DNA from: a virus
Lineage: Duplodnaviria; Caudoviricetes
IMG/VR virus record: IMGVR_UViG_3300033073_001635
Coordinates: 32,001-96,000 of that record
DNA: 64,000 nt
Strand: one strand, 5' to 3'
Under the pieces are notes generated by a model. It saw only the letters and a program-made list of their open reading frames with translations, was not told the DNA's origin and searched no databases. Shown one piece after another: positions 26,601 through 53,974 of this stretch (the first letter of the stretch is position 1; the number at the start of each line of letters is the position of its first letter). Made by a program: the position numbers and the translations under genes.

Positions 26601-29600
26601 GCCAAAAGAGGAACAGGTAGAACAGCTAGAGTAGCTAGTACTAAAGCCATTGTTGTTATAACTGGCATTGTTGAAACGAATAAAACTGTACCCAAAGCAC
26701 CAAGCACAGCACTGCCAAATATAGAGTTATCTATAATTCTAGTAAGGCTTGCTTGATTTACTGTTTTCAATAACTTAGCTGTAAAACTTTTTGGATTATG
26801 ATTTAAAAACAAATCTTTATTAGCAATATTTGGAGTTTGTTGTTTTAACTTCACATCCTCAACATCATCTTCGTAACTTTCTAAAGATAGACCAGTAATA
26901 CTATAATATAAATTATTAAAATATAATGGCGTTACATTTATTCCATAAAAATTAGAATTTATTCTTTGTAACTCTTTATTGATTTCAGTTTCGCTATCTA
27001 AATATACATATGGTTCTATTAACAAAACACTAGCTAGTAAATGAAAATCACAAATCATTGAAAGTAATTTTTTTACTTTCAATTCTTCTTTTGCATTTGA
27101 AGTTTCTCTTTTAGTAAAAGTTGAAGCAGTTAATGGATCTAATATATAAATTTTATATTCTAAATCATATTCTGTTCTTTTAGATTCAACAACAGCATCT
27201 ATTTTATTTTCTTTAAAATAACGTCTTAATACCTCCTCTGTAGCGGGGTCTCTTTCTTTATTTGTAATTTTATATTTTTCTACGAAGTCATTGTACTTTT
27301 CTGATTTTGATAAATCATCAATCGCTTCAACATCATAAACATAAACAGTTGATTCATTTGTTACATTAGAGCTCATTAATTTTTGCTTTATAGAATTTTC
27401 TAAATCAACAAATCTTTTTTCTTCATAATTTGTTCCAAAAAAAGAATCAACTGAATCTCTATTAAAAAGCTCATCTAGTTGTTTTAAAAATTTATCTTGT
27501 CTCAAGCTTTCATCATATAAATTGGCTTCTTTTGAAAAATTAATTTTAGTATTTTGAATAAAATCTGAATCAACATCATTATCTAATTCGTCTACACCAT
27601 TCTCATTTTCAACAGGATTTAAAGTAGTGTTAGTATCTGATCCAATATTGATTTTATTAAATAAATTTTTAAATTGAGGATGTATTCCAGGATCAGATCC
27701 TCCGCCTAATAAAGTTATACTCTCAATAATGTTATTATCTAAGTAGTCTTTATTTAAATAATAATTTAAAAAATCAAAAGTGTGACCGGTATCTAAATTA
27801 GGATTATTTATAATTTCATATATTGTATTCTGTCCCTCACTAGGATACTTATCTTTAAAAATATCAACTTTATTTGAACCAAAATTAATTCCATACTTAC
27901 CATTTTTATCAGCAGACCAAAAATAAGAATTTTGATATTCAGGTGAATAATTCTCATCAGTTTTAAAAGAATTTATTTTTAAATTTCTTAAAGCAAAATA
28001 TAATTCTTTTTCTTCTTCATTTAAATTAGAAAACTTTTTTTTATCAAACTCTTTTAATGCAGCTACTGTAGTATCGTTTTGGTCAGCATATTCTGTTAGT
28101 TTTGAATCATAACTTGATTGATCCAACATATTAGATCTTAAATCAATATGTACAAAACCGGTTTCAGATTTTTGACCACCCATTACTGTAGCGTATTCAA
28201 ATTCTAAAGCAGGAGTGCTTCCTGGAAATCTAAAAGAATTTCTTTTTAAAATATCATTACCATATACTCCAATTCCAATTTTACTCTTATTATTTTCAGC
28301 AATTTGTTTAAGTCTACGAAAGATATGAATTACATTAAAATTTGGCACTACAATATCTACTGCAGATCCAAAATAATGTTGAGAAAAAGTAGTTCTTGTA
28401 TCTTCTTCTTGAGTTGTAAACCCACTAGTTATTTGAACACCTTTAAATAATTCTTTAAACTGCTGCAAATAATCAACTAATGGATCTAGATATTCAGTTG
28501 CTAATTTATATAAATTAGTATTTACAACTTTTGAAATTCGTTTTTGACTAAGTAATGTTTTTAATTCTTCTTTTTTGTTAACATAACTTTTAAAAAAATC
28601 CCAAGATTTAAAATATTTACTTTGCCATTCAAAAACATTGTCATCAGTAAATTCTTGCACTATACCTTGTTTTAAATCAAAATTTCTAGAACTATAATTA
28701 GAATTATCACAATTCATTAAAGCATAATTAACAACATCGTTATATAAATTTTCGTTCTTTGCTGTTTTGTTAGTAGTTAATTCTTTTAATCTTTCTGAAT
28801 CATATACATTGGTTTCACTTAAACGCATAGTATATGCAGAAGCTCCAGGATTAGATTCTAAAGTTCTATATTCAGTACTTTCAATACTGATTGGTTTCTT
28901 TACATTTATAAAGTAACTTTCCTTATCGTCTATGTTTTCTTTAATTAGATATTCTTCTTTAAAAGAACCAAATAGTCTTGTAATAAAAGAATCAACTAAG
29001 ATGCCAGTACCATCTGGTACAAATTTATATTCTCTAGCAGTTCTAAGTGTTGTAGTATTTATTTCCTCTAAACGTTTTATTGCATTTGGAAGATCACTTG
29101 CAGAATCTTCCAAACCATTTGCATGCATGTTATTAGAAGCAATTAAATTTAATTGATAATTTGGCTCCATACTACTTAAAAATTGTGTAGTAGGATATGC
29201 TTGTCCTAATATTGGAATATTTGCTGTTAAAGAATTGATTCCACCAGAAACTGAAACTAAAACATTATCTTTTGTTTTAAAATCAGGTCCATCTTCAATA
29301 GTTAAAGGGAGTACTTTTGTCTTAGTAAATATATTACTTACATAGTTTTTTTCCAACCATGGTTGATATGGCGATTCATTTGTTTCAGATCCATTTAAAA
29401 ACGAATTCATTGTTTTGAATGTTTTTAAATCATCTTCTGTTAAATATTTTAGTGGCCATGCTTCTTCAACAACAGGCGTTGGTGTCTGAATTTCAGGTTT
29501 TGGTTCTGGTTTCGGTGGTTCAGGTGGAATTTCAGCGACAGGAGCTGGTTCTACTACTGGTGGAGGTACTGGTTCAGGTATTGGTTGAGGTGGAGGCGCA

Positions 29601-31053: not shown

Positions 31054-32265
31054 TTAATTACCTTCTTCATTTGAAATTTTGATTAAAGCTTGAGCTATTT
31101 TCTTTTGATTTTCAAGAATTCTAATTTTTTTTTCTTTAGGATCACTTATGACTTCTGTACCATTTAGAATTTCTAGTCTATAGTTTTTTAACACTTCACC
31201 TGGTAAATTCAAATAGTAATATTGATTATAATAGATTTTCATATTTAAATCTTTTTCTAACATTTTTAAAATCAATTTTATTTTTATGTATTCAGGTAAA
31301 TATGCAGAATGCAATCCTATTACTAAATTTTGAAAATTCTCCCCAACTAAACCAGATTCTAAGACTTTCATTTCTTCTTTATTAAAGATTGATTGATCAA
31401 CGCAATTAATTCCAAAGTTCTCAGTCAAAGATTTAATTTGCAAATAATTGTAATATCTAACATATACGTTACTAAAATAAGGTTCTCTAACACTCATTGA
31501 AAAATTATATTTTTTTAAATTTCTATACATTGAAGTAAAATATGTTTCTGATTCTTTTTTAGTAGAATTAGAAGTAGAATTTGTTTCTGTAGTTGCTTCT
31601 TGATTTCGTGTTTGTGTTGTTAAAGTATATCTTATTTGTGCTAATTTTTTAATATCAAAAACAGGGAAAACAAAACTAGAAAAATAAGTATCGCTTATGG
31701 GTATTAAAAGTGATTCTAATTCTTTTCGAAACATCAAATTAGGAGAATAAGGATAATAATTAAAATATTTTAAATCCAATTCCGCTTCAAAAGAAGAAAC
31801 ACCAGCTTGATAAGAACTAATTCTAAATCCGACTACAGTGCAAAACAAATTAGTAGGATTATTTTTATCAAATGCTAAATTAGGATCAATTTCTAAAATA
31901 GAATTTTTAATATAATCATTCTTTACCCATACAAAAGGATTATTCCTTATCTGAATAATCAATCTATGTAACATTAAAATCATCTCTCTATTAAATAATA
32001 ATTTAATTTGAATACCAACACTACTTCTACCAGAAACAACTTTAGTGGTTGTCTTTGATCTTAATGTTTTATAACCCCAATTAAAATTATCTTTTTGAAT
32101 TTGAATAGAAATTGGTGGAATAGGAAATAAAATATCATTTAAAATAAATCCTGTATTTTCTCCTAATTCTCGTAAATGATTACTTACTTCTGAAAAAACC
32201 ATTTCTCCAGTATATTCAAAATAATCTCTATTAATAATTTCTTTATTTAAGTCTAAAACAGCCAA
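31054..32265 (-). CDS. Putative tail tube initiator / baseplate-tube junction protein
   Basis: 403 aa, TTG start preceded by GGAG; N-terminal ILFPIPPISIQIQK...YKTLRSK pattern resembles tube-initiator domains; lies between the tape-measure locus and the hub. Confidence 0.5.
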   Translation of the reverse strand: MAVLDLNKEIINRDYFEYTGEMVFSEVSNHLRELGENTGFILNDILFPIPPISIQIQKDNFNWGYKTLRSKTTTKVVSGRSSVGIQIKLLFNREMILMLHRLIIQIRNNPFVWVKNDYIKNSILEIDPNLAFDKNNPTNLFCTVVGFRISSYQAGVSSFEAELDLKYFNYYPYSPNLMFRKELESLLIPISDTYFSSFVFPVFDIKKLAQIRYTLTTQTRNQEATTETNSTSNSTKKESETYFTSMYRNLKKYNFSMSVREPYFSNVYVRYYNYLQIKSLTENFGINCVDQSIFNKEEMKVLESGLVGENFQNLVIGLHSAYLPEYIKIKLILKMLEKDLNMKIYYNQYYYLNLPGEVLKNYRLEILNGTEVISDPKEKKIRILENQKKIAQALIKISNEEGN

Positions 32266-32267
32266 AA

Positions 32268-35200
32268 TTATTCTCCCATAAGTTGATCAAGATAACCACC
32301 TGTTAATGGTCTACGATTATCATTGATCATGATACTTGAACTACCTCCATTTTGCAAAGCAATCTTATTCATATAATTCGCTTCTTCAATATTTCTAACG
32401 TTTCCTTTAATTAAATATGATTGATTTCTTGCAAGCATTGTACTCCCAGGACTTTGAACTCTACCAACCATATCTTTATAAAAAGGTCTTTGCATAGAGT
32501 CTGGAGACATTGATACATCTGAATTGTAATTTTGAACTTGAGCTAATTCTCTATTTTTAATTTTCTCATTTACTCTTGTATCAGTAAAAATTTCTTCAGG
32601 TCGAAGTTCTTCAGTATCATAAGAAGAAGATAATAAATATGATGCGCCAACTACTGCTGCAGTAGCAGCAGTCATCTTCATGTTTGATAAATTAGCAATA
32701 TTATCACCAATCATATTTAAAACATTTGATTGTCTATTACCAAGTAGGTTTTCAAATAAAGCTTGTTGTTCAGGAGTACTTAAACCTTGAGATCCAACCG
32801 CAGCTTCAAGCACATCAAAATTTCTAACCAACTTTAAATAATCTTCATTTGTAAAACGTTTATTCTTACCTGCGCTCATTAAAGCGCCTAGCATATTGTC
32901 AGAAGCGTAAGGACTTAAATTATTTGCTTTTACAGTTTTAATAATATTTCTGAGCCCTTCAAAAATATCATCAAGATTAAATGTAATTCTCTCTTTATTT
33001 AAACCTTCTGTATAAGCTGAAGCTAATGGTTCAGGCATATTTTCTACACTAACATTTTTTACAATTAAATCATTTAAGAAATCGGTGTCTTTAAAAACAG
33101 TTCCTCTCATAAAGTTTTCAAAATCAGTAGTATCCCCAGTTTCAAAAGCTGTGTTCAAAGTTTTAGTAAATAGCTCGCCGATATTAGTAGCTAAATCAAG
33201 AGATTTAGATTTAATAACAACAGATTCTTGAGAAGCAGAAATCAATAATTGTGCTGCTAAATCTGTTTTTCTAAAATCATTTAAATTCATATTTCCTTTA
33301 GCTAAATTATAAGCTGCACCAACTGCTACTTTTTTAACTGCAACGTCAACAGAACCAGTACCAGCTTTAAGAATTCTTTCTTTTGAAGATTCTGATTTTA
33401 ATAAATCTTGATATGTAATATTTGCAACATCCATTCTTTCTGCAACTTTTGACATTGCTTTTTTAGCAATCTCCATATTTACAACCATCATGGCACCGGT
33501 TTTTTGCATCTCTCTTATATTTCTTTGTATCTGACCCTTGAATGCATTACTGGTTTTTTCATTATTTAAAATGATTTGATAGATATCACCGTCAAAGTCA
33601 CCCACTGCAGCTCTAGATATATCTGTACGTACTTTTATATCGAAAGTATTAGATGGATCTTTTGTATTTTCAAATTTAAAAGTAGTTTCAAATTCAGGAT
33701 ACACTGCTCTACCAGCACCCAAACCAGTAGCTCTTGTATAATTCTGATCATATAGATCTACAGCTTCATTAATAATATCATCTAAACTATGATATTGTTT
33801 TTCTTCAGTTAAATCTATATTTGCTATTTTATTATCTATCTCTGATATTTTAACATTTTCTTCTTCTATAAAACCTTGTAATTTTTCAATTTTTTCATTT
33901 TGCTCTAAAGTTGTTAAATCCATATTTCTCGGTGAACGAAGAATTGGTTTATAAAGTAATCTTTGAGAATCACCTTGTTCAAAATCGTCTAATTTTTGCA
34001 AAAGATTGTCTTCATTATTTTTTACTTTTTCCAATAATTGTTCTTGTTTTGTACGTACATCATCATGCTCTACATAATATGCTTCATCTTCTTCATGATA
34101 AAAATCATCATAAATAAGTTCATCCATTTCTGTAAAATAATTATGCGCACGAATAAAGTTCTTTAATAAATCTTTATTTACTTTTTTTACAGTTATTCTC
34201 TCTGGTTCATCAGTTGGTATATGTGTACCTGTTTCAGGATCGTAATTAGTTTTATAAACAATTTCTGATTCACCAGTTTCTTGATTATATTTAGTTAAAT
34301 TAATTTCTTCTTCTTCAGTAAAAGCTTCTAATCCTAAAATTATATCCGATTTACCTAGAAAAGTTTCTGGTTGTCTAGAAGTAATTGGCATCCCCATATC
34401 ATCAAGTGCATTAACGTATGTAGGTTTACCTTCTGAATCAAGTATCACATTTCCTTCAGTATCTATTGCTAGATTTTTAAGTTCTCCCTTTTTTATTATA
34501 TTACCATCAGTATCATACTCATCAAAATCAGAAGCTAATTCTTCATAATAGAAATTTGCACTAGTTTTTCGACTTAGACCATTATTTTCTAATTCATCAA
34601 TTGATGAATCAATATTAAATTTTTCTCGTCTAGCTTCTTTTGCTTTTTCTTGTAAAGTAGCTAGTTTCTCTTCTTCTTCTTTAATTAACTGAGCATTTTT
34701 ATTAATGCGCCCTACTTTATATTTTGTTCTTTCTTCTGCTTCGTATTTAGATATATCTTCATCTAATTCTTCTAAAGTGCTGTATTGTTTGCTTTCGTCA
34801 TGATAAGTAGGTTTTGTTTTATCAGGTTTTCCATCGGGTCCTAATTCATAACCTTTGATTATTTTTACTTTAGAAAGTGCTTTCTTTTGTTTTTCACCTA
34901 AAGCCTCTTCTACTTTATTCTCTAAATGATTTTTATAAAACTCTTTTTGATCATCATCTAACTCTTCAAAAGGTTTCATTAATCGAGTAGCAGATATTTT
35001 ACCAAAAGTTGTTTGATCTGGATTCTGTTTTAAATTATCTTGAAAAGCTTTAATTAAAGCTTTGTCTTCGTCTGAATCTGTAATATTTCTAACAAATTTA
35101 CCTTCATCATCAACAACATGATAATCATATTCATCACTAAAAAACGATTGAAGAAAATCTTTACGAGCTTGATAAATTTCTTGTTCTTCCCGTATGAGCA

Positions 35201-38200
35201 TTTTAGGAATTATAGATTGTGCATAATATAACATTGAATTTACAAAGTTATTTGCACCTTTTGTTTTTCCTTGAATCATTGATTCTACAAATTGTTTTTT
35301 TAAAGTAAATTCTTGAATTTTTGCTTCAGAATTACTTGTATTAGTTATTTGATCTTGGTATTTACCTTCTTTTAGATTCTCTAATAGATCAAAAAGCATT
35401 GAAGTTGCATGAAAATGATTTGTGGTTGGAACATCTGGATCTTCCATTAATGTTTTTACAAAAGAAAACAAACTTTCAATCGCTTTCTTCTTTTCTTGTT
35501 TATGTAATTTTGAGAATGGTATCAATTTTCCATTCTCATCATAAGTCATTGCTGTAAAATTATTTGATACATCACGCCTAAGATAATCCGAAGTAAACAA
35601 TAATTCAGCAAAATCATCTTTGACTTCATGTAAAAATCTAGGCAATTCTAATAAATCTAATTGATCAGTATCAACTCCTAAAGTTCTATTTTGTTGTAAA
35701 CCAAAATCTTGCAATGCAAAAATATCACTAATAGCTTGGCTATTTATTTCAGTAGGACTTATTGGACGCTTTAAATTTAAATTTTCTTTTAATGATTCTC
35801 GATACAGTTTAGAATCATTTAAAAATCTATTTAATCCTTTTTGTATGACATCTTCAGCTAGTGCAGGAGAATATCCAAAATGAGCATATGCTTCTTGTAA
35901 TGTTTTGATTTCTTTATTAATACTACTAGCTTTTTCATTCATTTTTTTATAATTAAAAATTTTAAAAAATGCTTTGTAAATAGGATTATCATTTAAATCT
36001 GAATGTTCGGTAGGATCACTACTTAATTGTTGAATATAATTTTCTAAATAAGTATATACTGTTTTGCTATTTACACTTACTTGTTTATTTTTGTCAGAAA
36101 TATATTTTACAATAGTTTTATTAGGATCATTAGGGTCTGCGTAATCAATTAAATTTCCATTCTCATCAATATTTTCAATATTATATTTTATATAATTAAA
36201 CCCAGAATAAGTTCTTTCCTTGCCGTTTCTAGTTACAGTTTTTGATTCCCTATCAAAAGTTATGATTTTTCTAATTTTGTTACCTTCAGAGTCTTTTAGA
36301 AAATCAGATCCATCATGTTCATAAAAAACTTTTTGAGCATCATCATCTAAAGAATCTATAAATGGTATAAATCTTTTAGCAACTCTAGCACGACCAAGTC
36401 CTTTGTTTTCAAGCTGTGTTCTTTCTTCAAAACTTAAATCGGAATTATTCATCTCATATAAGAAATCAAATAAATTTAATCTTGCTTTTTTATTCTTAAA
36501 AAAAGCATTAGCTTCATCTGATTGCATGGTATCTTTCATGCTTTCAAATACTTTATTAAACTCTTCTATTTTTGTTCTATTGTAAAATTCATGACTTCCA
36601 AAAGTTTCAAGAATCTCTTTATTTGTAATAGGAAAATCAGGATGTATGATTGTTAAATTTAAAAATTTCTCAGTTTGGGTTTTATAAACAGGTTTACCAA
36701 ACTTATCAAGCATAGGCTTTCCTTTATTTTTTCCACTTTGATGTAATACTTCGATTTGACTTAAAATTTCCTCTTCATGTCCACCAAAAGAATTAATAAT
36801 TACTTTTTGAAAATCACGTTGTTTATTTAGTTTCTCTAAATTACTTTTACTACGTTTACTTTGCGTCAAAAGTAATTTCAATCTATGAGATTGAAGATCA
36901 ATTTCTCTATAATTTTTAATTATAGCTTCTTCATAAGTATTGTCATATCCATATCCTCTATAATATCTATCTAAAGCATCAGTTCTTTTTATTTGATCTC
37001 CAACATTTTCAAAAGAAGTCCCTGTACTATCTAGTATCATATTAGGATTCAAACTGTTATAAGCATATCTAGAATCCTTACCTAATAACCTGCCTGCTTG
37101 AAGTCTTCGATTCCTATCATTTTTGATATCTTTTATATTAGAAGATTTTTGTTTATAATAATTTAAAAACCCTTTTCCTACTCTATCTACTGATTCTTCA
37201 ACATTAGTATCTTTATTTATTCTAGTATAAGAAAAATTACCTTTAAACATTTCACTTCTTTGTTGTCGTAAAGTTTGAATGAAATCTTGTTTTTGTTGTA
37301 TATTCCCAGCTAAACGTTCTTGCTTTTGTTGCTTTTGATTTGAAAAGAATCTTGCTTTTGCTATTCTTTCTTGAAGATTTTCATAACTTGAAATTAGATT
37401 AGAATTTAAAGTATTTTCAATACCTTTTACATTTCTTTGATATGCAGTTTGTAAATTAAAAATTCTTTCATTTAAATTAGAAACGTTACTTTCTATTTTA
37501 TTTCTTTTATTAGTTAAATATTCCATTGTAGTTTTTTGAAAATCAAACGATAAATCTTTAAAAATACCAGTTTTGTTTAATTGATTTAAAACATTTAAAG
37601 TTTTAAAATTTAAAAAAGAAAAGTTATTTCCAGAATCGGCTGCTGATTGTATTGATTGATCAATGTAATTAATAACATCTTCGCCGCCATTCTGAATTAT
37701 CTTATCTCTAAATGCACTGTTATTACCCATAAATTCAGATAAAGATGATAAGAATATTTGCCCTTTAGTATTATAATTCAACACATCAGAATAATGAGAT
37801 TCAGGTAGATTCTCCCCAATATATTTATACATATCAATATTTAAAGCAATGTGAGACATACCTAGTTGTGGATTACGAAAATTTATACCCGAAATACCTT
37901 GAGGTTTAAAACTTCCATTTTCTAAACTATTTACTATTCTCATAGTTCCATCTGAAATTTGCAAAACATCCTCTTCCATACCAAATAAAAACTTTTTATA
38001 TAGTTCTCGTTTTTCTGTTGGATCTTGTGCATTAAACGTTTTACTAGCATACATAAATGCTTGCGTATCCAAAAACATATTATAACCATTGGATTCAATA
38101 AAAGCTGCATTCATTTTTTGAAGAATTTTAGCATTATCTAAATCATCGCTTACAAATCTAGTAATTTGATCTTTTTCAGGATCACCTAAACGAACACCCT

Positions 38201-41200
38201 TACCTTCTAACGTTGCAGAACCAGACATTCTACCAGCTAAAATCTGTCGTTGCATACCCCCTAACATGTGTTGTAATTGTTTTACATGATACATTGCTTG
38301 ATTTACTTTATTTGTTTGATCAACTTCTTCAGTTGAAGTAGATGCTTCTCTTAAAAAAGCAAAAATATCATTTACTTTTCTATATAATTCAGATTCAATT
38401 TTTAAATCTTTTTGATTACTTTTAATTTCAACACCAGAAACAACATCTAAAACATTGCTTAAAGGCACTACAATTTCAGTTTTAGTTTCGCCAATTTGTT
38501 TTAAAAAGCTTTGATATGCAGCAGTATTTATATTTTCATTACCTTCAACACCTCTAAGAAACATTTGTTGAATATCCATAACAAAGCCCATGGCTTGAGG
38601 ATTTAATTCTTGTTGTTCTTTTAAAAAATTACTTAAAGCGGTAGCTGAATCAATATCAACATTTGCTCTTAAAAACTTTTTAGTAAATTCTTCATCGGCT
38701 CTAAACAAATAACCTTGACCTACAAAATCATCAATTGAATGTTTCAAAGCACCTGCATCCATACTGGGATGCAATGACTGCCCCATTAATAGCAATGGTG
38801 TCATTGCTTGAGCTTTTTCAGCAACACCAGATTGTTTTGAAAATAATTCAGCCATATATTCTGCTGCTTCATCTTCATTCATTTGAAACATACCCATTAA
38901 ATTACCCATTACAAAGTTAGCAAAACGAGGTTCTACTCTAGCCATTCTATCTTTGTTAATAGTAGATTGTGTACCAGCAAATGTAGACATTGCACCAATA
39001 AAAAATCCTCTTTCAGCAGTTTCAAAAACTACTTTTTGTTGCTCAGCAGTTAATCTTGTATTAGCTAAAAGACCTTTTAATTGATCTTTAAAAGCAACGG
39101 CTTTTTTACCAGGTTCAGTTGCTGGTTCTTTTAAATTATGGTACGCAGGAATTAACAAGTTTCCTAAAACTTCAGGAGTTACTTGTTGAGCTGTTGCGCC
39201 TGATGCAGTAGGTAATTCAGCATTATCAGCAATTAAATTAGAAAAAGTTTCAATGATATTTTCTGCTACAATCTTTTGATATTTAGGTGCATGCTGTTTT
39301 ACCTTTGTATCCATTTCAGCAGCTTCAATTTTTCCTTGCATATTAAAAACATTAGATTCAATAAAATCATCAGCATAACCTAACATTTTTAAAGAACCAT
39401 AAAGTAAAGAAGACAAAAATTGTGGGCCCTTTGTAACAACGTCCATACCTGCTAACATTGTACTTTCAATTTTACCACCAAATGTTTTCATATAAGTATT
39501 TTCAAAAAAACGACTAGCTTCTTGCATTGCAGCTTCTCTATTTATAAATTTTCCAGTAACTGGATCTTTTTTATATAAAGCCTGCGCTAAAACATTTTTC
39601 ATACCACCTTCATCAAGTATTTGTTCTTCACCAAAGAAAACACCCTTAACAGCTTCTGAAAATATCTTACCTTCATGACTACCATAAACTTCACCAGCAA
39701 TACTAAACATACCAGTTCTTTCAGTATTAACATTGGTATTCATTTTTAACTTCAAACCCATCATGCCTTTTTGTTTTTTTATCAAAGTAGGCATGTTATC
39801 TTTAAAACCTAAAACTAGATTTCCATCTTTATCTCCATAATTTTTAAAAAAAGTTTCTAATTCACTTCCAAACAAATTAACTTCTTCACCAGCTAATATC
39901 TTTTGAAAAACATCAGATTCATAAATACTTAGATTAGTCATCCCCTTAGTATATTGAAAAGATTTTTGTAAAGGTTCTGATACTAAATGCATACCACCTC
40001 TATATTGCATTGCATCTGCCAAACCTAATCTTTGACCTTTTTTAGCATTACTATTGAAATCTATAATTACACCAGTATTTGCACCTACTAAATCTAAATT
40101 TTGAAATTCTTTACCAACTACTAATAAATCAGCACCTTTAGTTGCAGATGTTTTAATAGAACCAGTTCTACCAAAACTTAAAGATTGCATTCCTCTTTGC
40201 ATATCTTCAAAGGTTTCAAATTTAGTATTTGCAGGAAAATAACCAAGCATAGCTTCTGGTTTAGCAAATAACTGAGCAATACGTGCAGAACCAGGTAATA
40301 AAGATTGATCTTTAATACCATGAGTTCTAGCAATATTATAAGGTATCACTGCAGGATTAGAAACGTTTTGACGTCCAAGAATTGCATTTGGATCAAGTAT
40401 TACAGCTTGTTGTTCAAAAGAAGTGCTCTTTAATTCCTTTCTAATTGTACCTGCTTGACCTTGTGCAGGACCAAAAATACCAATATTTAAAGATACTAAT
40501 TCATTTAAATCTACAGGAAATTGACCACCTGTTTTACCTCTATTAAAAAAATAAGCAGTATTTGACATTATTTGAATGCCGTGCTTTTGTTGAATACCAG
40601 CATAACCAAAATTCATTTGACCATGCGTAGGGTAATATTGAGTTAAACCAGAAAGAACTTCCATAAAAGAATTTCTTTCAGCTTGATTCATATAATGAAT
40701 GTCTTCTGGAGAATAAGTTTTTAATAAATTAATTGCAAAATCTTCAAAAGAAGATTTAGGCATTTTTTTTGCAAAAATATTTCTAGCAATTTTTTGTTTT
40801 TCAGCAAGATTCGCACCCTTACTAACTTCAGCAAAATCTGCTGCATCAAAATAATGATTATGTGCAACCTTTGCATTTCCGTAATCACTAGATAATCTTA
40901 CATATCTTCCATGTGTACCTTCAGCAGCCATTAAAGGAATTATTAATGGTTGTTTTGAAGATCTATTATGAGTAGAACTTATTCTAGCATAAACACCATA
41001 TGCATCTTCATTAGCTTCTTTTATAATATCAAAAGAAACTTTAAAATTAGGATTATTATTTCCCAATCTCAAATGATCACTAATTATATTAAATCTATTT
41101 AGAACAGTGTTCTTTACTTCGTTACTTTTACCTTTAAAAATACTCCATAGCTGATCATCTTGTAAAGATGATGCAGTTAAATTTTGTTTATGATAAATTG

Positions 41201-41936
41201 TATTCACATTCTTTTGCGCACTAAAAGTTTCGAATGGATTAGTGATAGTTACATTTCCACCATTATTAGTTCTTCGAGAGCTAGTAGATATTAAATGTGC
41301 AACACTAGAATTTTTTTGATGTAAACTAACATATTTTTCTTCGAGCGTTTTATTACTTCTAATTGAATCTAAAAAACCTGCTATATCTGCTTTGTCAGCA
41401 TCACTCATTCTAGAAGAATCTTCAATTGCACCTCGAACCTTTGTTATTAATTTAGCTTTAGCTTCTTCATCTAAAGCTAAATCAGGATCATTAACCATAT
41501 CTAATATAACTGATAAATGACTAATTCTTTGATTTTCTTTTGCAGCTAAAATTTCATCTAATTTTGATCGAGCATCTACAGTAGCCATTTCATCAAATAA
41601 ATTAAGTGTAACTTCTTTTGCTTTCTCTTTTGCTAAAGCATTTCTAGCTTGATAATCACTAATTGATCTATCTCTAATAGCTTTACCAATTTTTCTAGTA
41701 GGTAATGCAGTGTCTTCCTTTATCCCACTAGAATTCATAAAATTAGTTAAATTTCTAACACCAGGAATAGGGTTCTTCATATTAGGATTATCATTTGCAA
41801 ATCCTAAGTAACCTGCACCTAAAACAAAAGAAGCACCACCAATAGTTTTTAAAACATCAAAACTATTTCTTGCAAAAGCTCTACGTTCTTCTGTGTCTTT
41901 TTTATAAACATTATAAATTAAACTTGGATTTGTCAT
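32268..41936 (-). CDS. Giant virion protein with a single-chain two-barrel RNA polymerase signature (candidate virion RNA polymerase)
   Basis: 3222 aa. GDFDGD at 33585..33602 (aa 2779-2784); FRNPQL (R1354); ILAGRMSGSAT (R1236); EGKIFSEAVKGV (K757, K764); hydrophobic Gly/Ala segments at both termini; lies between the tape-measure-like gene and the baseplate genes. Confidence 0.75.
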   Translation of the reverse strand: MTNPSLIYNVYKKDTEERRAFARNSFDVLKTIGGASFVLGAGYLGFANDNPNMKNPIPGVRNLTNFMNSSGIKEDTALPTRKIGKAIRDRSISDYQARNALAKEKAKEVTLNLFDEMATVDARSKLDEILAAKENQRISHLSVILDMVNDPDLALDEEAKAKLITKVRGAIEDSSRMSDADKADIAGFLDSIRSNKTLEEKYVSLHQKNSSVAHLISTSSRRTNNGGNVTITNPFETFSAQKNVNTIYHKQNLTASSLQDDQLWSIFKGKSNEVKNTVLNRFNIISDHLRLGNNNPNFKVSFDIIKEANEDAYGVYARISSTHNRSSKQPLIIPLMAAEGTHGRYVRLSSDYGNAKVAHNHYFDAADFAEVSKGANLAEKQKIARNIFAKKMPKSSFEDFAINLLKTYSPEDIHYMNQAERNSFMEVLSGLTQYYPTHGQMNFGYAGIQQKHGIQIMSNTAYFFNRGKTGGQFPVDLNELVSLNIGIFGPAQGQAGTIRKELKSTSFEQQAVILDPNAILGRQNVSNPAVIPYNIARTHGIKDQSLLPGSARIAQLFAKPEAMLGYFPANTKFETFEDMQRGMQSLSFGRTGSIKTSATKGADLLVVGKEFQNLDLVGANTGVIIDFNSNAKKGQRLGLADAMQYRGGMHLVSEPLQKSFQYTKGMTNLSIYESDVFQKILAGEEVNLFGSELETFFKNYGDKDGNLVLGFKDNMPTLIKKQKGMMGLKLKMNTNVNTERTGMFSIAGEVYGSHEGKIFSEAVKGVFFGEEQILDEGGMKNVLAQALYKKDPVTGKFINREAAMQEASRFFENTYMKTFGGKIESTMLAGMDVVTKGPQFLSSLLYGSLKMLGYADDFIESNVFNMQGKIEAAEMDTKVKQHAPKYQKIVAENIIETFSNLIADNAELPTASGATAQQVTPEVLGNLLIPAYHNLKEPATEPGKKAVAFKDQLKGLLANTRLTAEQQKVVFETAERGFFIGAMSTFAGTQSTINKDRMARVEPRFANFVMGNLMGMFQMNEDEAAEYMAELFSKQSGVAEKAQAMTPLLLMGQSLHPSMDAGALKHSIDDFVGQGYLFRADEEFTKKFLRANVDIDSATALSNFLKEQQELNPQAMGFVMDIQQMFLRGVEGNENINTAAYQSFLKQIGETKTEIVVPLSNVLDVVSGVEIKSNQKDLKIESELYRKVNDIFAFLREASTSTEEVDQTNKVNQAMYHVKQLQHMLGGMQRQILAGRMSGSATLEGKGVRLGDPEKDQITRFVSDDLDNAKILQKMNAAFIESNGYNMFLDTQAFMYASKTFNAQDPTEKRELYKKFLFGMEEDVLQISDGTMRIVNSLENGSFKPQGISGINFRNPQLGMSHIALNIDMYKYIGENLPESHYSDVLNYNTKGQIFLSSLSEFMGNNSAFRDKIIQNGGEDVINYIDQSIQSAADSGNNFSFLNFKTLNVLNQLNKTGIFKDLSFDFQKTTMEYLTNKRNKIESNVSNLNERIFNLQTAYQRNVKGIENTLNSNLISSYENLQERIAKARFFSNQKQQKQERLAGNIQQKQDFIQTLRQQRSEMFKGNFSYTRINKDTNVEESVDRVGKGFLNYYKQKSSNIKDIKNDRNRRLQAGRLLGKDSRYAYNSLNPNMILDSTGTSFENVGDQIKRTDALDRYYRGYGYDNTYEEAIIKNYREIDLQSHRLKLLLTQSKRSKSNLEKLNKQRDFQKVIINSFGGHEEEILSQIEVLHQSGKNKGKPMLDKFGKPVYKTQTEKFLNLTIIHPDFPITNKEILETFGSHEFYNRTKIEEFNKVFESMKDTMQSDEANAFFKNKKARLNLFDFLYEMNNSDLSFEERTQLENKGLGRARVAKRFIPFIDSLDDDAQKVFYEHDGSDFLKDSEGNKIRKIITFDRESKTVTRNGKERTYSGFNYIKYNIENIDENGNLIDYADPNDPNKTIVKYISDKNKQVSVNSKTVYTYLENYIQQLSSDPTEHSDLNDNPIYKAFFKIFNYKKMNEKASSINKEIKTLQEAYAHFGYSPALAEDVIQKGLNRFLNDSKLYRESLKENLNLKRPISPTEINSQAISDIFALQDFGLQQNRTLGVDTDQLDLLELPRFLHEVKDDFAELLFTSDYLRRDVSNNFTAMTYDENGKLIPFSKLHKQEKKKAIESLFSFVKTLMEDPDVPTTNHFHATSMLFDLLENLKEGKYQDQITNTSNSEAKIQEFTLKKQFVESMIQGKTKGANNFVNSMLYYAQSIIPKMLIREEQEIYQARKDFLQSFFSDEYDYHVVDDEGKFVRNITDSDEDKALIKAFQDNLKQNPDQTTFGKISATRLMKPFEELDDDQKEFYKNHLENKVEEALGEKQKKALSKVKIIKGYELGPDGKPDKTKPTYHDESKQYSTLEELDEDISKYEAEERTKYKVGRINKNAQLIKEEEEKLATLQEKAKEARREKFNIDSSIDELENNGLSRKTSANFYYEELASDFDEYDTDGNIIKKGELKNLAIDTEGNVILDSEGKPTYVNALDDMGMPITSRQPETFLGKSDIILGLEAFTEEEEINLTKYNQETGESEIVYKTNYDPETGTHIPTDEPERITVKKVNKDLLKNFIRAHNYFTEMDELIYDDFYHEEDEAYYVEHDDVRTKQEQLLEKVKNNEDNLLQKLDDFEQGDSQRLLYKPILRSPRNMDLTTLEQNEKIEKLQGFIEEENVKISEIDNKIANIDLTEEKQYHSLDDIINEAVDLYDQNYTRATGLGAGRAVYPEFETTFKFENTKDPSNTFDIKVRTDISRAAVGDFDGDIYQIILNNEKTSNAFKGQIQRNIREMQKTGAMMVVNMEIAKKAMSKVAERMDVANITYQDLLKSESSKERILKAGTGSVDVAVKKVAVGAAYNLAKGNMNLNDFRKTDLAAQLLISASQESVVIKSKSLDLATNIGELFTKTLNTAFETGDTTDFENFMRGTVFKDTDFLNDLIVKNVSVENMPEPLASAYTEGLNKERITFNLDDIFEGLRNIIKTVKANNLSPYASDNMLGALMSAGKNKRFTNEDYLKLVRNFDVLEAAVGSQGLSTPEQQALFENLLGNRQSNVLNMIGDNIANLSNMKMTAATAAVVGASYLLSSSYDTEELRPEEIFTDTRVNEKIKNRELAQVQNYNSDVSMSPDSMQRPFYKDMVGRVQSPGSTMLARNQSYLIKGNVRNIEEANYMNKIALQNGGSSSIMINDNRRPLTGGYLDQLMGE

Positions 41937-41939
41937 TTA

Positions 41940-44900
41940 TCAGTATCCACTTCTATAAGAATTAATGAATGCATTTATTTCATTTTGTCTATCATCGTTA
42001 TACATCAATTGTGTTCTATTTTGAAAATCACTTGTTGTATTTACAGTAAAATTACTATTTAATCTTTCATATGGGTTTGCATATCTTAACAAACTATCAA
42101 CCATACCTCTATTTGAAAAAGACTCTTCATACATAAATTCATGTGCTTTATTTAAAGCATGATGTCTTTTTACACGTCTAGCTTGAGAATCCCAAAGATC
42201 ATAATCTCTCATTTCGTCCCCTAAAGAAGCAACATAATTTACTTTTATATCATTTATATCTACTTCTTTATTCCAACCAACCCAATCAGGTTCAGGCATA
42301 GGATATTCTCCCATATCTAAGTTAGAATATTGTTCTTGTAGATATCGCTCATCATATCTTGGTTTTTCTTCAATCAAAGAAGTAGGATCTATACCTGCAT
42401 CAAGATTACTCCATAATCCTTGATACAAGTGCTGTTGATCTTCTGGAATCATTTCCAAAATTCTATCTCGCTCAGATCCTTGTGCATTTGCAAATGCATC
42501 AAAAAATTTCTTTTCTTCACTAGGCAAAGACATATAGATACTTAAAGGATCACCATAGGGATTTACACCAGCTCTAGTTTTGGCTGCTTGTGCTAACATT
42601 TGTTTCTTCTCATACATGCTGCCAGCCTGTTGAGAAAGATTCATGAATTTGTAAAAATTCAATTGATCATATTGTTTAGACAGTGCTTCTCTATTTTCAA
42701 CATATCCTGGCTTACCTTCCCAGCCTAAAGCATTCAATCCTGAATAAAATGCGGGTCTAACCCAATCTCTAATTGGTTTATCCCAAAAAGCTAATTGAGT
42801 ACCATACAACCTTTCATACTCATATTGATCAATTGCATCTCTCTCTCCACCAAGTAATTTTTGTGCAGGTCTAAAACCAAAAGGAACAACAGATTCAACA
42901 GGTTGTGCTATCGTTCTAATACCTTCTTTTAATTGATAATAACCTGCTTGAGTTACATCTGATAAAACAGGTATTTTTATTTGATTCTCGTAACCTTTAA
43001 ATTCTTGCATGCCTAATACTTTAGCATGAGATTCCGCAACCATATCCATTAAATTGTTTTCAAATTCACTAGTGATTCCAGCAGCTCTTCTTTCATAAAG
43101 TTGATTTCTTAATTTAACAACTTCTCTAGAAGTAGGGTCTACATCTGCTAATATTTTATATTTAAATACATCAGGATAATCTTCTGGTTCAAATCCTTCT
43201 AGTACTGGAAATACAGCTTCAAAACCTTCACCAGGTAATCTAGCATAGGCATTTTGTATTTTTGTATATGGGTCGCCTCTTCTAAATTTATCAGGCATCC
43301 ATGATGGCATAGTATTACTGATTGGATTATATTGTTCTATTTCTTTTTTTGGTCTTGGATACAAACGTCTAAGTGCTTCAGACATAAACATCATACCCCC
43401 AAGATCTTTGTCCCAAAAAGCCGCAATTGAAGAATCTATTTGATTAGCACTAGCTAATACAGGATAATCTGTTCCATATATTTCTCTTCCGGTAACTGCT
43501 TTCTGAACCATATTTTTAACCCAACCAGTTAAACCTTCAAGTTCTCTAAATTGATATTGAATTTTACCAGGAAGTAATTTTCCTTCATAAGGTGAAATTG
43601 GTGGACCATTTGGTGTAGTACCACCAATTTCTCTTGTAGTACCAACTTCAGGAGGATAATAATATTCTAATTCATTATTATCATTTACACGCATATATTC
43701 ATTAGCATGCATTATCTTTGCTGGTTTTATTAAACGACCAATAGTATGAGCCAGAATGGGTCCAAGAATAGGAACATTTTCAAAAGCAACACCAGTAATA
43801 GGATAAGGTCTATCATAAAAATGTTTTTCTTCTAAATGATAAGTAAAGTTTTTTAAGAACCATTTAGATATAGGATTGTATTGTTCGTCTTCTTCTCCCC
43901 AAATAGATTTTTCTTCTGCTCTAGTCATTAATAAATGATATGCATGTGGTCTTGAATATAAGACATCAGAACCTTCATAAGGCAAGCCACCACCTTCCCA
44001 GAATCTACCCTTTCTAACATCAACAAATTTATTACCACTATATATCTCTTTTAATTCCCCTGGATTTTCCATTGTACCTAAAAGACTACCTGTCATTACT
44101 GAATGTAATAAGAAACCCCCAGCAAAAACAGTACCTAGTCTTCTAAAAAATGGAGTGTAATCAATTGATCTTGCAAGAGTATCAAATTCATCACCTTGCA
44201 TAGTTGCACCTTGCATTGCATGATAAAACTCAGTAGCAAATATCTCCATTCTTTCCATAATAGGTGCAAAAAGACTTTTACTGTTTAAATATGAAGCTTT
44301 AATACTTTCAACTCTATTCAATAAAGAGTAGTTCAAAAAATTCTTAGTATTTTGTCTATCGTATACTCTTGTTTTTATTAAATTATGGATTTCATTATCA
44401 AAATCTAGTCTTCTGGATCTTGCTGTAATATCATCTTCGTTATTAAAAAATTCTTCAGTAATTATTTTAAAAAAATTATTTAAAAGGTTACTTTTACCAG
44501 TAGTTTCCATATTAACTGAAGAATATTCACCTACTCTACTATTTAAAATATCAAAGTATCTTTTAAATACTGGAGATGTTCTTAATAAATTTTGTTTATT
44601 TGCTTTTAATGTTTCTAGTTCTTTATTTAAAGTTTCAATTTTACTTGCATCAGTAGGATTTACTTTAGAAATTACTTCATTTAAATTTTTAATTTGAGAA
44701 TTTAAATTTTTAAAATTAGATTGTAAATCACTTAAACCTTCTATTTTATCTTGGTTTTGAAAAAATGTACCAAATATAGGATTGTACTTTTCAAATATTT
44801 CTGATTCAGTTTCGTAAAATAATTCTTTCAAAAGATTAAAATGTTCAGTCTTTTTATCTGCACCAAGTATCAACCCCTTTTTATTTCGATACATATCTAT

Positions 44901-48184: not shown

Positions 48185-48616
48185 TTAATCTATATGTTCT
48201 ATTTCTCTACCAATAAAATTATATTCAGTCAAGATAACATTATCATCTATTTGAATAGATTGTCCATGACCCATAATAAAGCAATTTTTTAATTTCATTT
48301 TTTTTGAACTACTGCAATCCATCCAAAATTCAATAGTAATATCAAAAAAATCTATTTGAGAAAAATCAATATTTGAACCTGCTTTGACTTCAGAATAAAC
48401 ATCATTAGGAGATTTAAAATTAATAACAAATCTTCCTTGAACAATATGTTTGCCTTCTAAAACTGCATCAAATTTATTCGAATAGTAAGAGTATACAGGT
48501 TGTTTTGAATAAGTTACTTGATAAGATACACCAACTGCATCTATTTCATTATTATTAATTAATAATTTAATATTCGCACCAGAAAAATACTCATATGAAT
48601 AATTATCAGTTGTCAT
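48185..48616 (-). CDS. Tail tube-like protein (paralog 3)
   Basis: YFSGANI...VSYQV...KQPVY...G...VQGRFVINF...QSIQIDD...EYNFIGR; same pattern as 49364..50104. Confidence 0.7.
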   Translation of the reverse strand: MTTDNYSYEYFSGANIKLLINNNEIDAVGVSYQVTYSKQPVYSYYSNKFDAVLEGKHIVQGRFVINFKSPNDVYSEVKAGSNIDFSQIDFFDITIEFWMDCSSSKKMKLKNCFIMGHGQSIQIDDNVILTEYNFIGREIEHID

Positions 48617-49334: not shown

Positions 49335-49363
49335 AATAGTATTATGGCCCTTTTATTTATTTA

Positions 49364-50104: not shown

Positions 50105-50120
50105 ATTAATTGTCTCCTAA

Positions 50121-52679: not shown

Positions 52680-52690
52680 AATAGCCTCCT

Positions 52691-53973: not shown

Positions 53974-53974
53974 A

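What the first reader, a model, noticed from the sequence alone, without database searches (positions are those of the whole stretch)
32268..41936. Candidate single-chain virion RNA polymerase encoded in the tape-measure locus of a myovirus
Seen: the 3222-aa protein has GLADAM (D641), EGKIFSEAVKGV (K757/K764), RQILAGRMSGSAT (R1236), GINFRNPQL (R1354), GRAVYP (P2747) and AVGDFDGD (2779-2784), then KAGTGSV and QESVVIKSK. Established: two-barrel RNA polymerases have a beta-like barrel (ED; GDK..HGNKG with two lysines) and a beta-prime-like barrel (LLGKRVDYSGR; NRxP; AIQLHP; NADFDGD). In single-chain members (SPbeta YonO, crAss-like virion RNAP, QDE-1) the beta-like barrel comes first, as here. 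Thermus phage P23-45 is known to fuse an RNAP to its tape measure. Inference: because the gene sits between the tape-measure-like gene and the baseplate genes and has hydrophobic termini, the enzyme is packaged in or ejected through a contractile tail to transcribe early genes. I do not know of a characterised example with this architecture.
Basis: partly seen in the sequence, partly recalled or inferred. Interest (0 to 1): 0.93.

Follow-up and report, generated by a model that had tools for sequence, protein, structure and literature searches.

The report
Phage tail-gene cluster hides RNA polymerase
A 3222-residue gene in the tail operon of an uncultured contractile-tailed phage of about 155 kb most likely encodes a cell-type ("two-barrel") RNA polymerase whose catalytic barrel is split by a 1365-residue insertion. 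It belongs to a previously unannotated protein family and is probably carried into the host to start phage transcription, though that delivery is inferred, not shown.

Summary

**Family.** An exhaustive profile search found about 40 distant relatives of 1700-3265 aa. None of those scanned matches Pfam or PHROGs.
- Invariant or nearly so: K757, K/R764, R1354-x-P1356 and G-D2780-x-D2782-x-D2784.
- Almost all length variation lies at one site between RNP and DxDxD (116-1493 aa).

**Fold.**
- The model of the window protein's own N-core also hits QDE-1 first.
- The two halves of the split barrel are predicted to dock (ipSAE 0.67, best control 0.00).

**Context.** The gene sits in a sheath/tube/baseplate operon between two other conserved giant genes. 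This order is kept in distant relatives.

**Verdict.**
- The polymerase identity is well supported.
- Virion packaging and ejection are inferred only.
- It is a separate gene, not a tape-measure fusion as in Thermus phage P23-45.
- It is a new variant of a known kind.
- The scan found the same family earlier on other DNA (e1-2797372).

The parts
32268..41936 (-). Whole ORF, 3222 aa (P0001): candidate single-chain two-barrel RNA polymerase
   Evidence: Homologs.
40077..41936 (-). N-terminal region, aa 1-620. It has a Gly/Ala-rich, mildly hydrophobic segment at about aa 29-47 and the family-conserved R552/Q555.
   Evidence: Its fold was not modelled.
39627..40076 (-). Beta-like double-psi barrel (DPBB-B), about aa 621-770. 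It contains the acidic G-L-x-[ED]-G loop (D641) and the basic pair K757/K764.
39645..39668 (-). Codons for K757 to K764, the two conserved basic residues, 7 residues apart
   Evidence: K757 40/40; K764 K or R 40/40.
38253..39626 (-). Helical connector between the barrels, aa 771-1228. It includes the invariant E1002-P1003-R1004.
37821..38252 (-). First half of the catalytic beta-prime-like barrel (DPBB-A), aa 1229-1372, with G1239-S1240 and R1354-N-P1356
   Evidence: These strands pair with the C-terminal half in the predicted complex.
37869..37877 (-). Codons for R1354-N1355-P1356 (counterpart of NRxP)
   Evidence: R and P 41/41.
33726..37820 (-). Lineage-specific insertion of about 1365 aa (aa 1373-2737) inside DPBB-A. 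It is rich in K, E, N and D and evolves fast.
   Evidence: Found only in P0001-P0003. Identity to P0003 is 51% here against 89-90% in the flanks. In the family the site ranges from 116 to 1493 aa while the flanks keep constant length. Composition.
33561..33725 (-). Second half of DPBB-A, aa 2738-2792: G2740-x-G2742, P2747 and the G-D-F-D-G-D-x-Y-Q loop
33585..33599 (-). Codons for D2780-F-D2782-G-D2784, the metal-binding triad
   Evidence: 39 of 39-40 at each Asp.
32271..33560 (-). C-terminal module after the barrel, aa 2793-3222. It is mostly helical, with conserved K2852-E2853, K2857, E2904, K2909 and K2911. It also has a Gly/Ala-rich segment at about 3075-3093.
   Evidence: Present at the C-terminus of every full-length family member. 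Largest-subunit (Rpb1-type) RNAP matches to the relative's model extend to about model residue 1100.
32307..32348 (-). C-terminal signature G-G...I-N-D-x-R-x-P (aa 3197-3210). The upstream giant protein has a similar Y-N-D-D-R close to its own C-terminus.
41940..46424 (-). Upstream 1494-aa giant gene, conserved partner in the cassette, function unknown
   Evidence: 35-65% identical to the gene in the same position in L001, L002, L005 and L006. No Pfam hit; one weak PHROG hit of unknown function.
31054..32265 (-). Downstream 403-aa gene. In distant relatives its counterpart forms the N-terminus of the next giant protein.
   Evidence: N-termini of the L005 and L006 downstream proteins resemble it. 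Weak phrog_20474 hit.
20648..31051 (-). Downstream 3467-aa giant gene with an M15/endolysin-like domain and several membrane-type segments. It is the best tape-measure or hub candidate.
   Evidence: The relative in L006 carries Peptidase_M23 (weak).
48185..52679 (-). Tail sheath (50121-52679) and three tube-like genes (48185-50104) upstream in the same strand block
   Evidence: PHROG hits.
18089..19330 (-). Baseplate wedge gene downstream
   Evidence: phrog_6, E 6.9e-34.

Best explanation
P0001 is a single-chain DNA-dependent RNA polymerase of the two-barrel (double-psi beta-barrel) superfamily. It is the founding member, in this window, of an unannotated family of giant phage proteins.

**Supported by tests here**
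- A beta-like barrel (about aa 621-770) supplies an acidic loop and the basic pair K757/K764.
- After a helical connector comes the catalytic beta-prime-like barrel. Its first half (aa 1229-1372, G-S and R-N-P motifs) and second half (aa 2738-2792, G-D-F-D-G-D) are separated by a fast-evolving insertion of about 1365 residues. The two halves are predicted to pair strand-to-strand into one barrel.
- A conserved, mostly helical C-terminal module of about 430 residues follows.

**Inferred**
- The gene is translated from the late tail operon, 3 and 2 bases from its neighbours.
- Its place is fixed between two other giant genes across distant relatives.
- It shares a C-terminal N-D-x-R signature with the upstream giant.
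- From these I infer that the enzyme is built into the virion with them, probably in or at the contractile tail. It would be delivered with the DNA and transcribe the first phage genes independently of the host polymerase, as shown for P23-45 gp96 and the crAss-like phi14:2 gp66.
- A second DxDxD-bearing giant ORF in the non-structural part of a close relative's genome may be the non-virion polymerase that takes over.
For: **1. Motifs**
- All motifs are present.
- They are conserved across 41 sequences at 20-25% identity: K757 40/40, K/R764 40/40, R1354 and P1356 41/41, the Asp triad 39 of 39-40.

**2. Architecture**
- N-core and C-module are found in all full-length relatives.
- The K-to-R spacing is 496-782 aa and the stretch after the first Asp is 411-457 aa (one truncated member aside). 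The RNP-to-Asp distance ranges from 116 to 1493 aa, so there is one expansion site.

**3. Fold of a short relative (P0011 aa 560-1759)**
- The AF2 model has pLDDT 78.5 and pTM 0.80.
- In the unbiased search of 48,161 PDB chains, the top 15 rows are all two-barrel RNA polymerases:
- Lower in the same list:

**4. The window protein itself (aa 620-1400)**
- The AF2 model has pLDDT 80.0.
- RNAP second-largest subunits match the first barrel.

**5. The split barrel**
- Complex prediction of aa 620-1400 with aa 2730-2945 scored 0.67; the best of 3 controls was 0.00.
- That mark was reached by 58 of 80 solved complexes and 2 of 110 mismatched pairs. The counts hold only roughly because my own alignments were used.
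- The runs agree in at least 51% of contacts, and the partner's pLDDT is at least 53.
- The interface pairs aa 1237-1250, 1275-1312 and 1348-1386 with aa 2740-2749 and 2773-2817. Residues 640-642 also touch the partner.
- These are halves of one gene and the DPBB fold is well represented among solved structures. The pass may therefore partly reflect likeness to known barrels.

**6. Context**
- The sheath, tube-like genes, two small genes, 1494-aa gene, polymerase, 403-aa plus 3467-aa peptidase-bearing genes and baseplate genes all lie on one strand.
- The same order occurs in relatives whose polymerase is only about 25% identical.
- There is no excess of promoter-like or terminator-like sites around the gene.
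Against: - No sequence-level link to any known polymerase exists in Pfam, PHROGs, PDB sequences or PDB profiles. hhalign against P23-45 gp96 gave probability 0.15%.
- Foldseek against the PDB gave nothing at E <= 0.001. Only weak AR9 and phiKZ polymerase rows appeared.
- The residue before the Asp triad is Gly, not the Asn-Ala of cellular enzymes. R1236 is not conserved.
- No coordinates were available, so convergence of the lysines and aspartates in 3D was not measured.
- Nothing here shows that the protein is in virions. SPbeta YonO, a related single-chain enzyme, is to my knowledge a non-virion polymerase.
- A 1365-residue insertion inside a catalytic barrel has no characterised precedent and could impair activity.
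Confidence: 0.6

Rival explanations
1. It is an active two-barrel RNA polymerase but is not packaged. It would be made late and work inside the infected cell, for example on late genes as described for SPbeta YonO. Its place in the tail operon would then be only a matter of timing.
For: Fold and motifs as above. No strongly hydrophobic or signal-like segment was found.
Against: - The position between tail genes is fixed across relatives down to about 25% identity.
- The gaps to both neighbours are 2-3 bases.
- It shares a C-terminal N-D-x-R signature and Gly/Ala-rich end segments with the adjacent giant protein.
- A second DxDxD giant ORF in the non-structural region of the relative would better fit the intracellular role.
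- A polymerase made only with tail proteins comes too late to transcribe them.
Confidence: 0.17
2. It has the two-barrel fold but a different chemistry. It could be RNA-dependent or ssDNA-dependent RNA synthesis, priming, or DNA synthesis as in archaeal PolD, rather than promoter-dependent transcription.
For: The two best structural matches are RNA-silencing polymerases, QDE-1 and plant RDR2, which copy RNA or ssDNA. The residue before the Asp triad differs from that of cellular transcription enzymes.
Against: - According to the P23-45 paper (PMC10770324, section 12), phage single-chain DNA-dependent enzymes cluster with the RNAi polymerases in one clade. Similarity to QDE-1 is therefore expected for a transcriptase.
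- The phage already encodes a DnaE-type DNA polymerase and a primase-helicase.
- PolD is not among the 50 rows shown. That is a missing match, not a proof.
Confidence: 0.08
3. It is a structural tail or ejection protein, a tape measure or tail-lumen plug, that keeps a relic polymerase fold without catalysis.
For: It occupies the tape-measure slot. Its length is highly variable at one site. One distant relative has a weak sub-threshold TMP_3 Pfam hit.
Against: - The metal-binding aspartates, both basic residues and R-x-P are essentially invariant over about 40 sequences at 20-25% identity. That is not expected for a relic.
- The barrels, not the insertion, are the conserved parts.
- The neighbouring 3467-aa protein, with peptidase and membrane-type segments, is a better tape-measure candidate.
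Confidence: 0.05

Closest known systems
Thermus phage P23-45 gp96, the tape-measure-fused virion RNA polymerase (Chaban et al. 2024, PMC10770324; PDB 8h2m, 8h2n)
   Same: - Single-chain two-barrel enzyme with a DFDGD triad.
- Encoded in the tape-measure position of the tail module.
- Lacks detectable sequence similarity to other polymerases.
- A possible second polymerase elsewhere in the genome echoes the gp96/gp64 pair.
   Different: - Here the polymerase is a separate ORF, not the N-terminus of the tape measure.
- The phage has a contractile tail, whereas P23-45 has a very long tail that, from my knowledge, is non-contractile.
- The catalytic barrel is split by an insertion of 116-1493 aa.
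- hhalign finds no profile similarity.
- QDE-1 is a closer structural neighbour than gp96.
Neurospora QDE-1 and plant RDR2 (eukaryotic RNA-silencing two-barrel polymerases; PDB 7y7p, 7w84)
   Different: - They are eukaryotic enzymes of about 1000-1400 aa that copy RNA or ssDNA.
- They have no insertion in the catalytic barrel.
- They have no phage tail context.
- Sequence identity in the aligned parts is 6-11%.
crAss-like phage phi14:2 gp66, virion-packaged RNA polymerase (PDB 6vr4)
   Same: - Giant single-chain two-barrel polymerase.
- Encoded among structural genes next to other giant proteins and delivered to the host.
   Different: - From my knowledge, it comes from a short-tailed (podovirus-like) phage of Bacteroidota, not from a contractile tail operon.
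- No sequence similarity: there is no PHROG hit and no tblastn hit in 50,697 phage records.
- The barrel is not split.
Bacillus prophage SPbeta YonO
   Same: From my knowledge, it is a single-chain two-barrel phage polymerase with the beta-like barrel first and a DxDxD triad.
   Different: From my knowledge, it is about 800 aa and non-virion, and it transcribes late genes. No sequence link was seen in PHROGs. No YonO row appears among the structural matches listed.

Membership tests
Two-barrel (double-psi beta-barrel) RNA polymerase superfamily | Catalytic barrel (DPBB-A) carrying a DxDxD metal-binding triad | tested here: met
   - G-D-F-D-G-D at 2779-2784; each Asp is conserved in 39 of 39-40 sequences.
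Two-barrel (double-psi beta-barrel) RNA polymerase superfamily | Second barrel (DPBB-B) supplying two conserved basic residues | tested here: met
   - K757 40/40; K764 K or R 40/40.
Two-barrel (double-psi beta-barrel) RNA polymerase superfamily | The two barrels face each other to form one active site | tested here: inconclusive
   - QDE-1 aligns over both barrels at once.
- In the predicted complex, residues 640-642 of the first barrel touch the chain that carries the Asp triad.
- No coordinates were available to measure distances.
Two-barrel (double-psi beta-barrel) RNA polymerase superfamily | Bridge helix and trigger-loop elements after the catalytic barrel | tested here: inconclusive
   - Long helices follow the barrel in the model (H849-880, H885-955).
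- Matches of RNAP largest subunits (Rpb1 type) extend to about model residue 1100.
- The individual elements were not assigned.
Two-barrel (double-psi beta-barrel) RNA polymerase superfamily | Template-dependent RNA synthesis | not testable with these tools
   Needs a biochemical assay.
P23-45 gp96-type tape-measure-fused virion RNAP | Polymerase and tape measure in one polypeptide | tested here: not met
   - P0001 is a separate ORF ending in a conserved C-terminal module.
- The peptidase and membrane-type segments typical of tape measures are in the separate 3467-aa gene.
- This holds in relatives too.
P23-45 gp96-type tape-measure-fused virion RNAP | Detectable sequence or profile relationship to gp96 | tested here: inconclusive
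   - hhalign probability was 0.15%.
- hmmsearch with filters off gave no meaningful hit.
- The gp96 paper itself says such families share no sequence similarity beyond the DxDxD motif.
Virion (injected) RNA polymerases in general | Protein present in the virion and acting on early genes | not testable with these tools
   The evidence is context only: late tail operon, conserved synteny, and an end signature shared with a neighbouring giant.
Phage tape measure proteins | Tape-measure family domains, or a long uninterrupted helical ruler with hydrophobic segments | tested here: inconclusive
   - P0001 has no Pfam or PHROG hit.
- One distant relative has a sub-threshold TMP_3 hit (14.9 bits against a cut-off of 41).
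- No segment passes the hydrophobicity threshold.
- The insertion was not modelled.

The most novel reading that the evidence does not exclude
The hypervariable insertion inside the catalytic barrel (116-1493 aa across the family) may be an extended tether or ruler. It would let the polymerase lie unfolded, or as two separated half-enzymes, in the lumen of the contractile tail beside the two other giant proteins. The barrel halves would snap together only after ejection into the host. This would be a polymerase whose activity is switched on by delivery and which may also help set or fill tail length.
Probability: 0.12. Interest if true: 0.92.

Novelty: new variant of a known kind. Interest (0 to 1): 0.78.

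Why it matters
- Virion-delivered two-barrel RNA polymerases have been characterised in very few phages. These are crAss-like phi14:2 gp66, Thermus P23-45 gp96 and the multisubunit enzymes of phiKZ-like jumbo phages.
- This finding adds a whole family of about 40 representatives at 50% clustering, seen in IMG/VR contigs of up to 158 kb. The family sits in a contractile-tail operon and is invisible to Pfam, PHROGs and BLAST against GenBank phages.
- It would extend host-independent early transcription to another large group of environmental myoviruses.
- It offers a natural example of a catalytic double-psi barrel that tolerates, and perhaps uses, an insertion of up to 1.5 kilo-residues.
- It provides motifs (G-K...K, R-N-P, G-D-F-D-[GA]-D-x-Y-Q) for annotating such genes.
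- The split architecture makes the question of how a large polymerase passes through a tail directly testable.

Tried and rejected
**Sequence and profile searches that found nothing**
- Pfam and PHROGs on P0001 and on six distant relatives gave nothing meaningful.
- phmmer of P0001 against PDB sequences gave only coiled-coil noise.
- Profile HMMs of the N-core and the C-module against PDB sequences gave nothing.
- tblastn of the P0001 C-part and of the P0011 core against 50,697 phage records found no match.
- The word-based search with the stand-alone C-module P0006 found nothing, not even itself.
- hhalign of the family against P23-45 gp96 gave probability 0.15%.

**Structure searches that found nothing useful**
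- Foldseek against the PDB found nothing at E <= 0.001. Only AR9 and phiKZ non-virion polymerases appeared, at probabilities 0.72 and 0.47.
- The ESM Atlas fold search gave TM <= 0.26 with glycosidases, which is noise.
- The Atlas feature search gave no lead for the 1494-aa neighbour or the 1859-aa ORF.

**Cultured-phage leads from BFVD**
- An HMM search of Ma-LMM01, MaMV-DC and ME3 with the C-module found no match.
- Only the Asp-triad motif aligns to MaMV-DC ORF82L, at 2.9 bits.

**Other attempts**
- hhalign of the 1859-aa ORF family against this family found nothing.
- No 11-mer is shared by three or more intergenic regions, so no promoter motif emerged.
- The promoter and terminator scan around the gene was at or below chance.

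**Rejected idea**
- I considered that the gene is naturally split in the Lake-sample relative L001. The break is a single in-frame TGA where P0004 has Ser, and downstream conservation continues.
Full report
**1. The observation**

The window is low in G+C (23-37%). From about 1 to 64000 it is one long minus-strand block of phage genes. The ORF at 32268-41936 (-) is open for 3222 aa. PHROG scans identify, upstream on the same strand, a portal, a major head protein, a tail sheath (50121-52679, E 3e-16) and tube-like proteins. Downstream they identify a baseplate wedge (18089-19330, E 7e-34). The phage is therefore contractile-tailed.

The target lies in the slot where tape-measure genes normally sit. 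It is 3 bases after a 1494-aa gene and 2 bases before a 403-aa gene. A 3467-aa gene with an M15/endolysin-like domain and several membrane-type segments follows.

**2. No known family by sequence**

P0001 has no hit in any of these searches:
- Pfam
- PHROGs
- PDB sequences
- tblastn against 50,697 GenBank phage records

**3. Relatives**

A word-based search found four close homologs. They fall into two clades about 43% identical in the N-terminal 1460 aa. An exhaustive HMM search of 1.84 billion representatives, using a profile of aa 430-1420, returned 44 proteins, mostly 1700-3265 aa.

All full-length ones also carry the C-terminal module of P0001 (aa 2690-3222) at their own C-terminus. The middle of P0001 (aa 1421-2690) matches only its nearest relatives and diverges much faster: 51% identity against 89-90% for the flanks in P0003.

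Counts in a 41-sequence alignment:

| Residue(s) | Conservation |
|---|---|
| K757 | 40/40 |
| K764 | K or R, 40/40 |
| R1004 | 41/41 |
| G1239-S1240 | 41/41 and 40/41 |
| R1354 and P1356 | 41/41 |
| G2740, G2742 | 39/41 |
| D2780, D2782, D2784 | 39 of 39-40 |
| Y2786 | 37/40 |
| E2853 | 40/40 |
| K2911 | 39/40 |
| D641 | acidic in 37/40 |
| R1236 | basic in only 29/41 |

The distance from R(NP) to the first Asp runs from 116 to 1493 aa (median 282). The K757-to-R1354 spacing (496-782 aa) and the stretch after the first Asp (411-457 aa, one truncated member aside) are nearly constant. The family is thus a conserved core with a single expansion site, and P0001 lies near the long extreme.

Six distant members have no meaningful Pfam or PHROG hit.

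**4. Fold**

Because the insertion puts the two barrel halves of P0001 beyond one 1200-residue prediction, I modelled a short relative first. This was P0011 aa 560-1759 with the family alignment. The model has pLDDT 78.5 and pTM 0.80.

Foldseek against the PDB gave nothing significant. Its only rows with appreciable probability were the AR9 and phiKZ non-virion polymerases.

|---|---|---|---|---|---|
| 7y7p_A | QDE-1 | 9.6 | 4.4 | 352 | model 1..1101, both barrels |
| 7w84_A | maize RDR2 | 8.9 | 4.5 | 340 | |
| 9mu7_A | Pol II Rpb1 | 8.1 | 4.9 | 374 | |
| 6rfl_A | vaccinia RNAP | 8.1 | 5.1 | 363 | |
| 8f5m_A | P74 gp62 | 7.5 | 5.4 | 309 | |
| 6vr4_B | crAss-like phi14:2 gp66 | 5.7 | 4.9 | 373 | lower in the list |
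| 8h2n_A | P23-45 gp96 | 5.7 | 4.8 | 289 | lower in the list |
| 7dww_A | designed DPBB | 6.2 | 2.6 | 84 | model 562..833 |

Pol I, Pol III, Pol IV, archaeal, mycobacterial, ASFV, plastid, phiKZ and AR9 enzymes also appear among the first 15 rows. The designed DPBB match runs from the G-S strand to the Asp-triad strand, so the barrel spans the insertion site.

The model of the window protein's own N-core (aa 620-1400) has pLDDT 80.0 and pTM 0.67. Its matches:
- The remaining rows are helical-bundle noise.

**5. The split barrel**

I asked whether the part after the insertion complements the part before it, using complex prediction on aa 620-1400 and aa 2730-2945.
- The score was 0.67 (runs 0.64-0.69), and the best of three controls was 0.00.
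- That mark was reached by 58 of 80 solved complexes and 2 of 110 mismatched pairs in the tool's calibration. The counts hold only roughly because my own alignments were used.
- The runs agree in at least 51% of contacts, and the partner's pLDDT is at least 53.
- The confident contacts are strand-to-strand. Residues 1237-1250 (G-S motif), 1275-1312 and 1348-1386 (R-N-P strand) pair with 2740-2749 (G-x-G...P) and 2773-2817 (Asp-triad strand and the following helix).
- Residues 640-642 of the first barrel's acidic loop also touch the partner.

These are two halves of one gene and double-psi barrels are common among solved structures. The pass may partly reflect that likeness. It shows complementarity in the model, not behaviour in a cell.

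**6. Context in relatives**

The cassette order is sheath, tube-like genes, a 1400-1675-aa giant, the polymerase-like giant, and a 3000-3470-aa peptidase-bearing giant. This order is kept in loci whose polymerase is only about 25% identical.
- The upstream giant is better conserved than the polymerase, at 35-65% identity.
- Both proteins end with a similar signature about 15-20 residues from the C-terminus: Y-N-D-D-R in the upstream giant and I-N-D-N-R-R-P in the polymerase. Both have Gly/Ala-rich segments near the N-terminus.
- The 403-aa gene of the window is the N-terminus of the downstream giant in distant relatives.
- There is no excess of promoter-like or terminator-like sites around the gene.

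**7. Where it occurs**
- The window's record is a 113,340-base virus record.
- Its closest relative is a 158,217-base contig filed in a MAG labelled uncultured Bacteriovoracaceae. That contig is collinear with the window's genome but holds about 46 kb more.
- A pattern-seeded scan of IMG/VR found five contigs of 44-158 kb.
- No GenBank phage record matched.

**8. A possible partner enzyme**

In the extra 46 kb of the relative lies an 1859-aa ORF (P0049). These motifs are invariant in six homologs down to 41-50% identity:
- G-K-G...K (597/604)
- R-T-P (797-799)
- G-D-N-D-G-D (881-886)
- an H-E-L-D-H motif (323-327)

The order and spacing are what a compact single-chain two-barrel enzyme would show. 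It remains a lead for a non-virion polymerase, as in P23-45.

**9. Interpretation**

Supported by tests here:
- P0001 belongs to a family with the sequence signatures and predicted fold of single-chain two-barrel RNA polymerases.
- The beta-like barrel comes first.
- The catalytic barrel is interrupted at a family-wide expansion site.
- The gene is a fixed part of a three-giant cassette in a contractile-tail operon.

Inferred:
- The protein is assembled into the virion and delivered to transcribe early genes.

Not supported:
- It is not fused to the tape measure.
- Sequence gives no evidence of a specific relationship to gp96.

The closest solved structures are QDE-1 and RDR2. This fits the published grouping of phage single-chain enzymes with the RNAi polymerases (PMC10770324, section 12).

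**10. Novelty and score**

The kind of system, a phage-borne and probably virion-delivered two-barrel RNA polymerase in a tail module, is known from P23-45. Three things are new: the family itself, its contractile-tail context as a separate gene, and the insertion-split catalytic barrel. An earlier follow-up in this scan reached a similar reading on the 93%-identical homolog (e1-2797372). My conclusions rest on the tests above.

Noticed in passing
L001:16553-16555 (relative from JGI sample 3300021091): The homolog is cut into 2184-aa and 545-aa ORFs by one in-frame TGA where the 85%-identical P0004 has Ser. Conservation continues across the stop. It is therefore a recent nonsense change, an assembly error or read-through, not a natural two-gene form.
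   Followed up: yes
window 41940-46424 (-) and 32268-41936 (-), C-termini: The 1494-aa upstream giant and the polymerase share a short signature about 15-20 residues from the C-terminus: Y-N-D-D-R against I-N-D-N-R-R-P. It is kept in relatives from three other clades (L001/L002, L005, L006). It could be a common assembly or docking signal.
   Followed up: partly
window 31054-32265 (-) with 20648-31051 (-): The 403-aa gene corresponds to the N-terminus of the downstream giant protein in L005 (3177 aa) and L006 (3001 aa). The two window genes are therefore a split, or the distant ones a fused, version of one protein.
   Followed up: partly
G001:C1:42386-47965 (-) = L033:2386-7965 (relative genome; region absent from the window's record): An 1859-aa ORF (P0049) carries invariant G-K-G...K (597/604), R-T-P (797-799), G-D-N-D-G-D (881-886) and H-E-L-D-H (323-327). 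It is a candidate second, non-virion two-barrel polymerase. It has no Pfam, PHROG, PDB or hhalign support and was not folded.
   Followed up: partly
L024 (Microcystis phage MaMV-DC, KF356199): record 66652-77334 (-) and 49224-54257 (-): A BFVD fold hit led to this cultured cyanomyovirus. ORF82L (3560 aa, 'hypothetical protein') has G-D-F-D-G-D at aa 2537. ORF65L (1677 aa) has G-D-A-D-G-D at aa 1352. There is no HMM-level similarity to the family studied here. Acinetobacter phage ME3 and a 'minor tail protein' of an uncultured siphovirus were also fold hits.
   Followed up: partly
L025 / G001:C1 (CAYOWH010000001.1, 158,217 b): The 93%-identical phage genome is deposited as a contig of a MAG labelled uncultured Bacteriovoracaceae. 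This is either a host hint (predatory bacteria) or a binning artefact.
   Followed up: no
L008:3892-5199 and L008:6248-7855 (G000:C1, outside the window): The phage's DnaE-type DNA polymerase is encoded in at least two pieces: PHP plus NTPase start, then NTPase end plus finger. There is a weak Intein_splicing hit at the end of the second piece.
   Followed up: no
L010:9847-14697 (-) (G000:C1:104847-109697, outside the window): A 1616-aa protein with a staphylococcal-nuclease domain (aa 1307-1415) lies in the block upstream of the large terminase gene. The rest of the protein is unassigned.
   Followed up: no
window 33726-37820 (-): The insertion evolves about five times faster than the flanking polymerase core (51% against 89-90% identity to P0003). 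Its composition is dominated by K, E, L, N and D. Its structure and role are unknown.
   Followed up: partly
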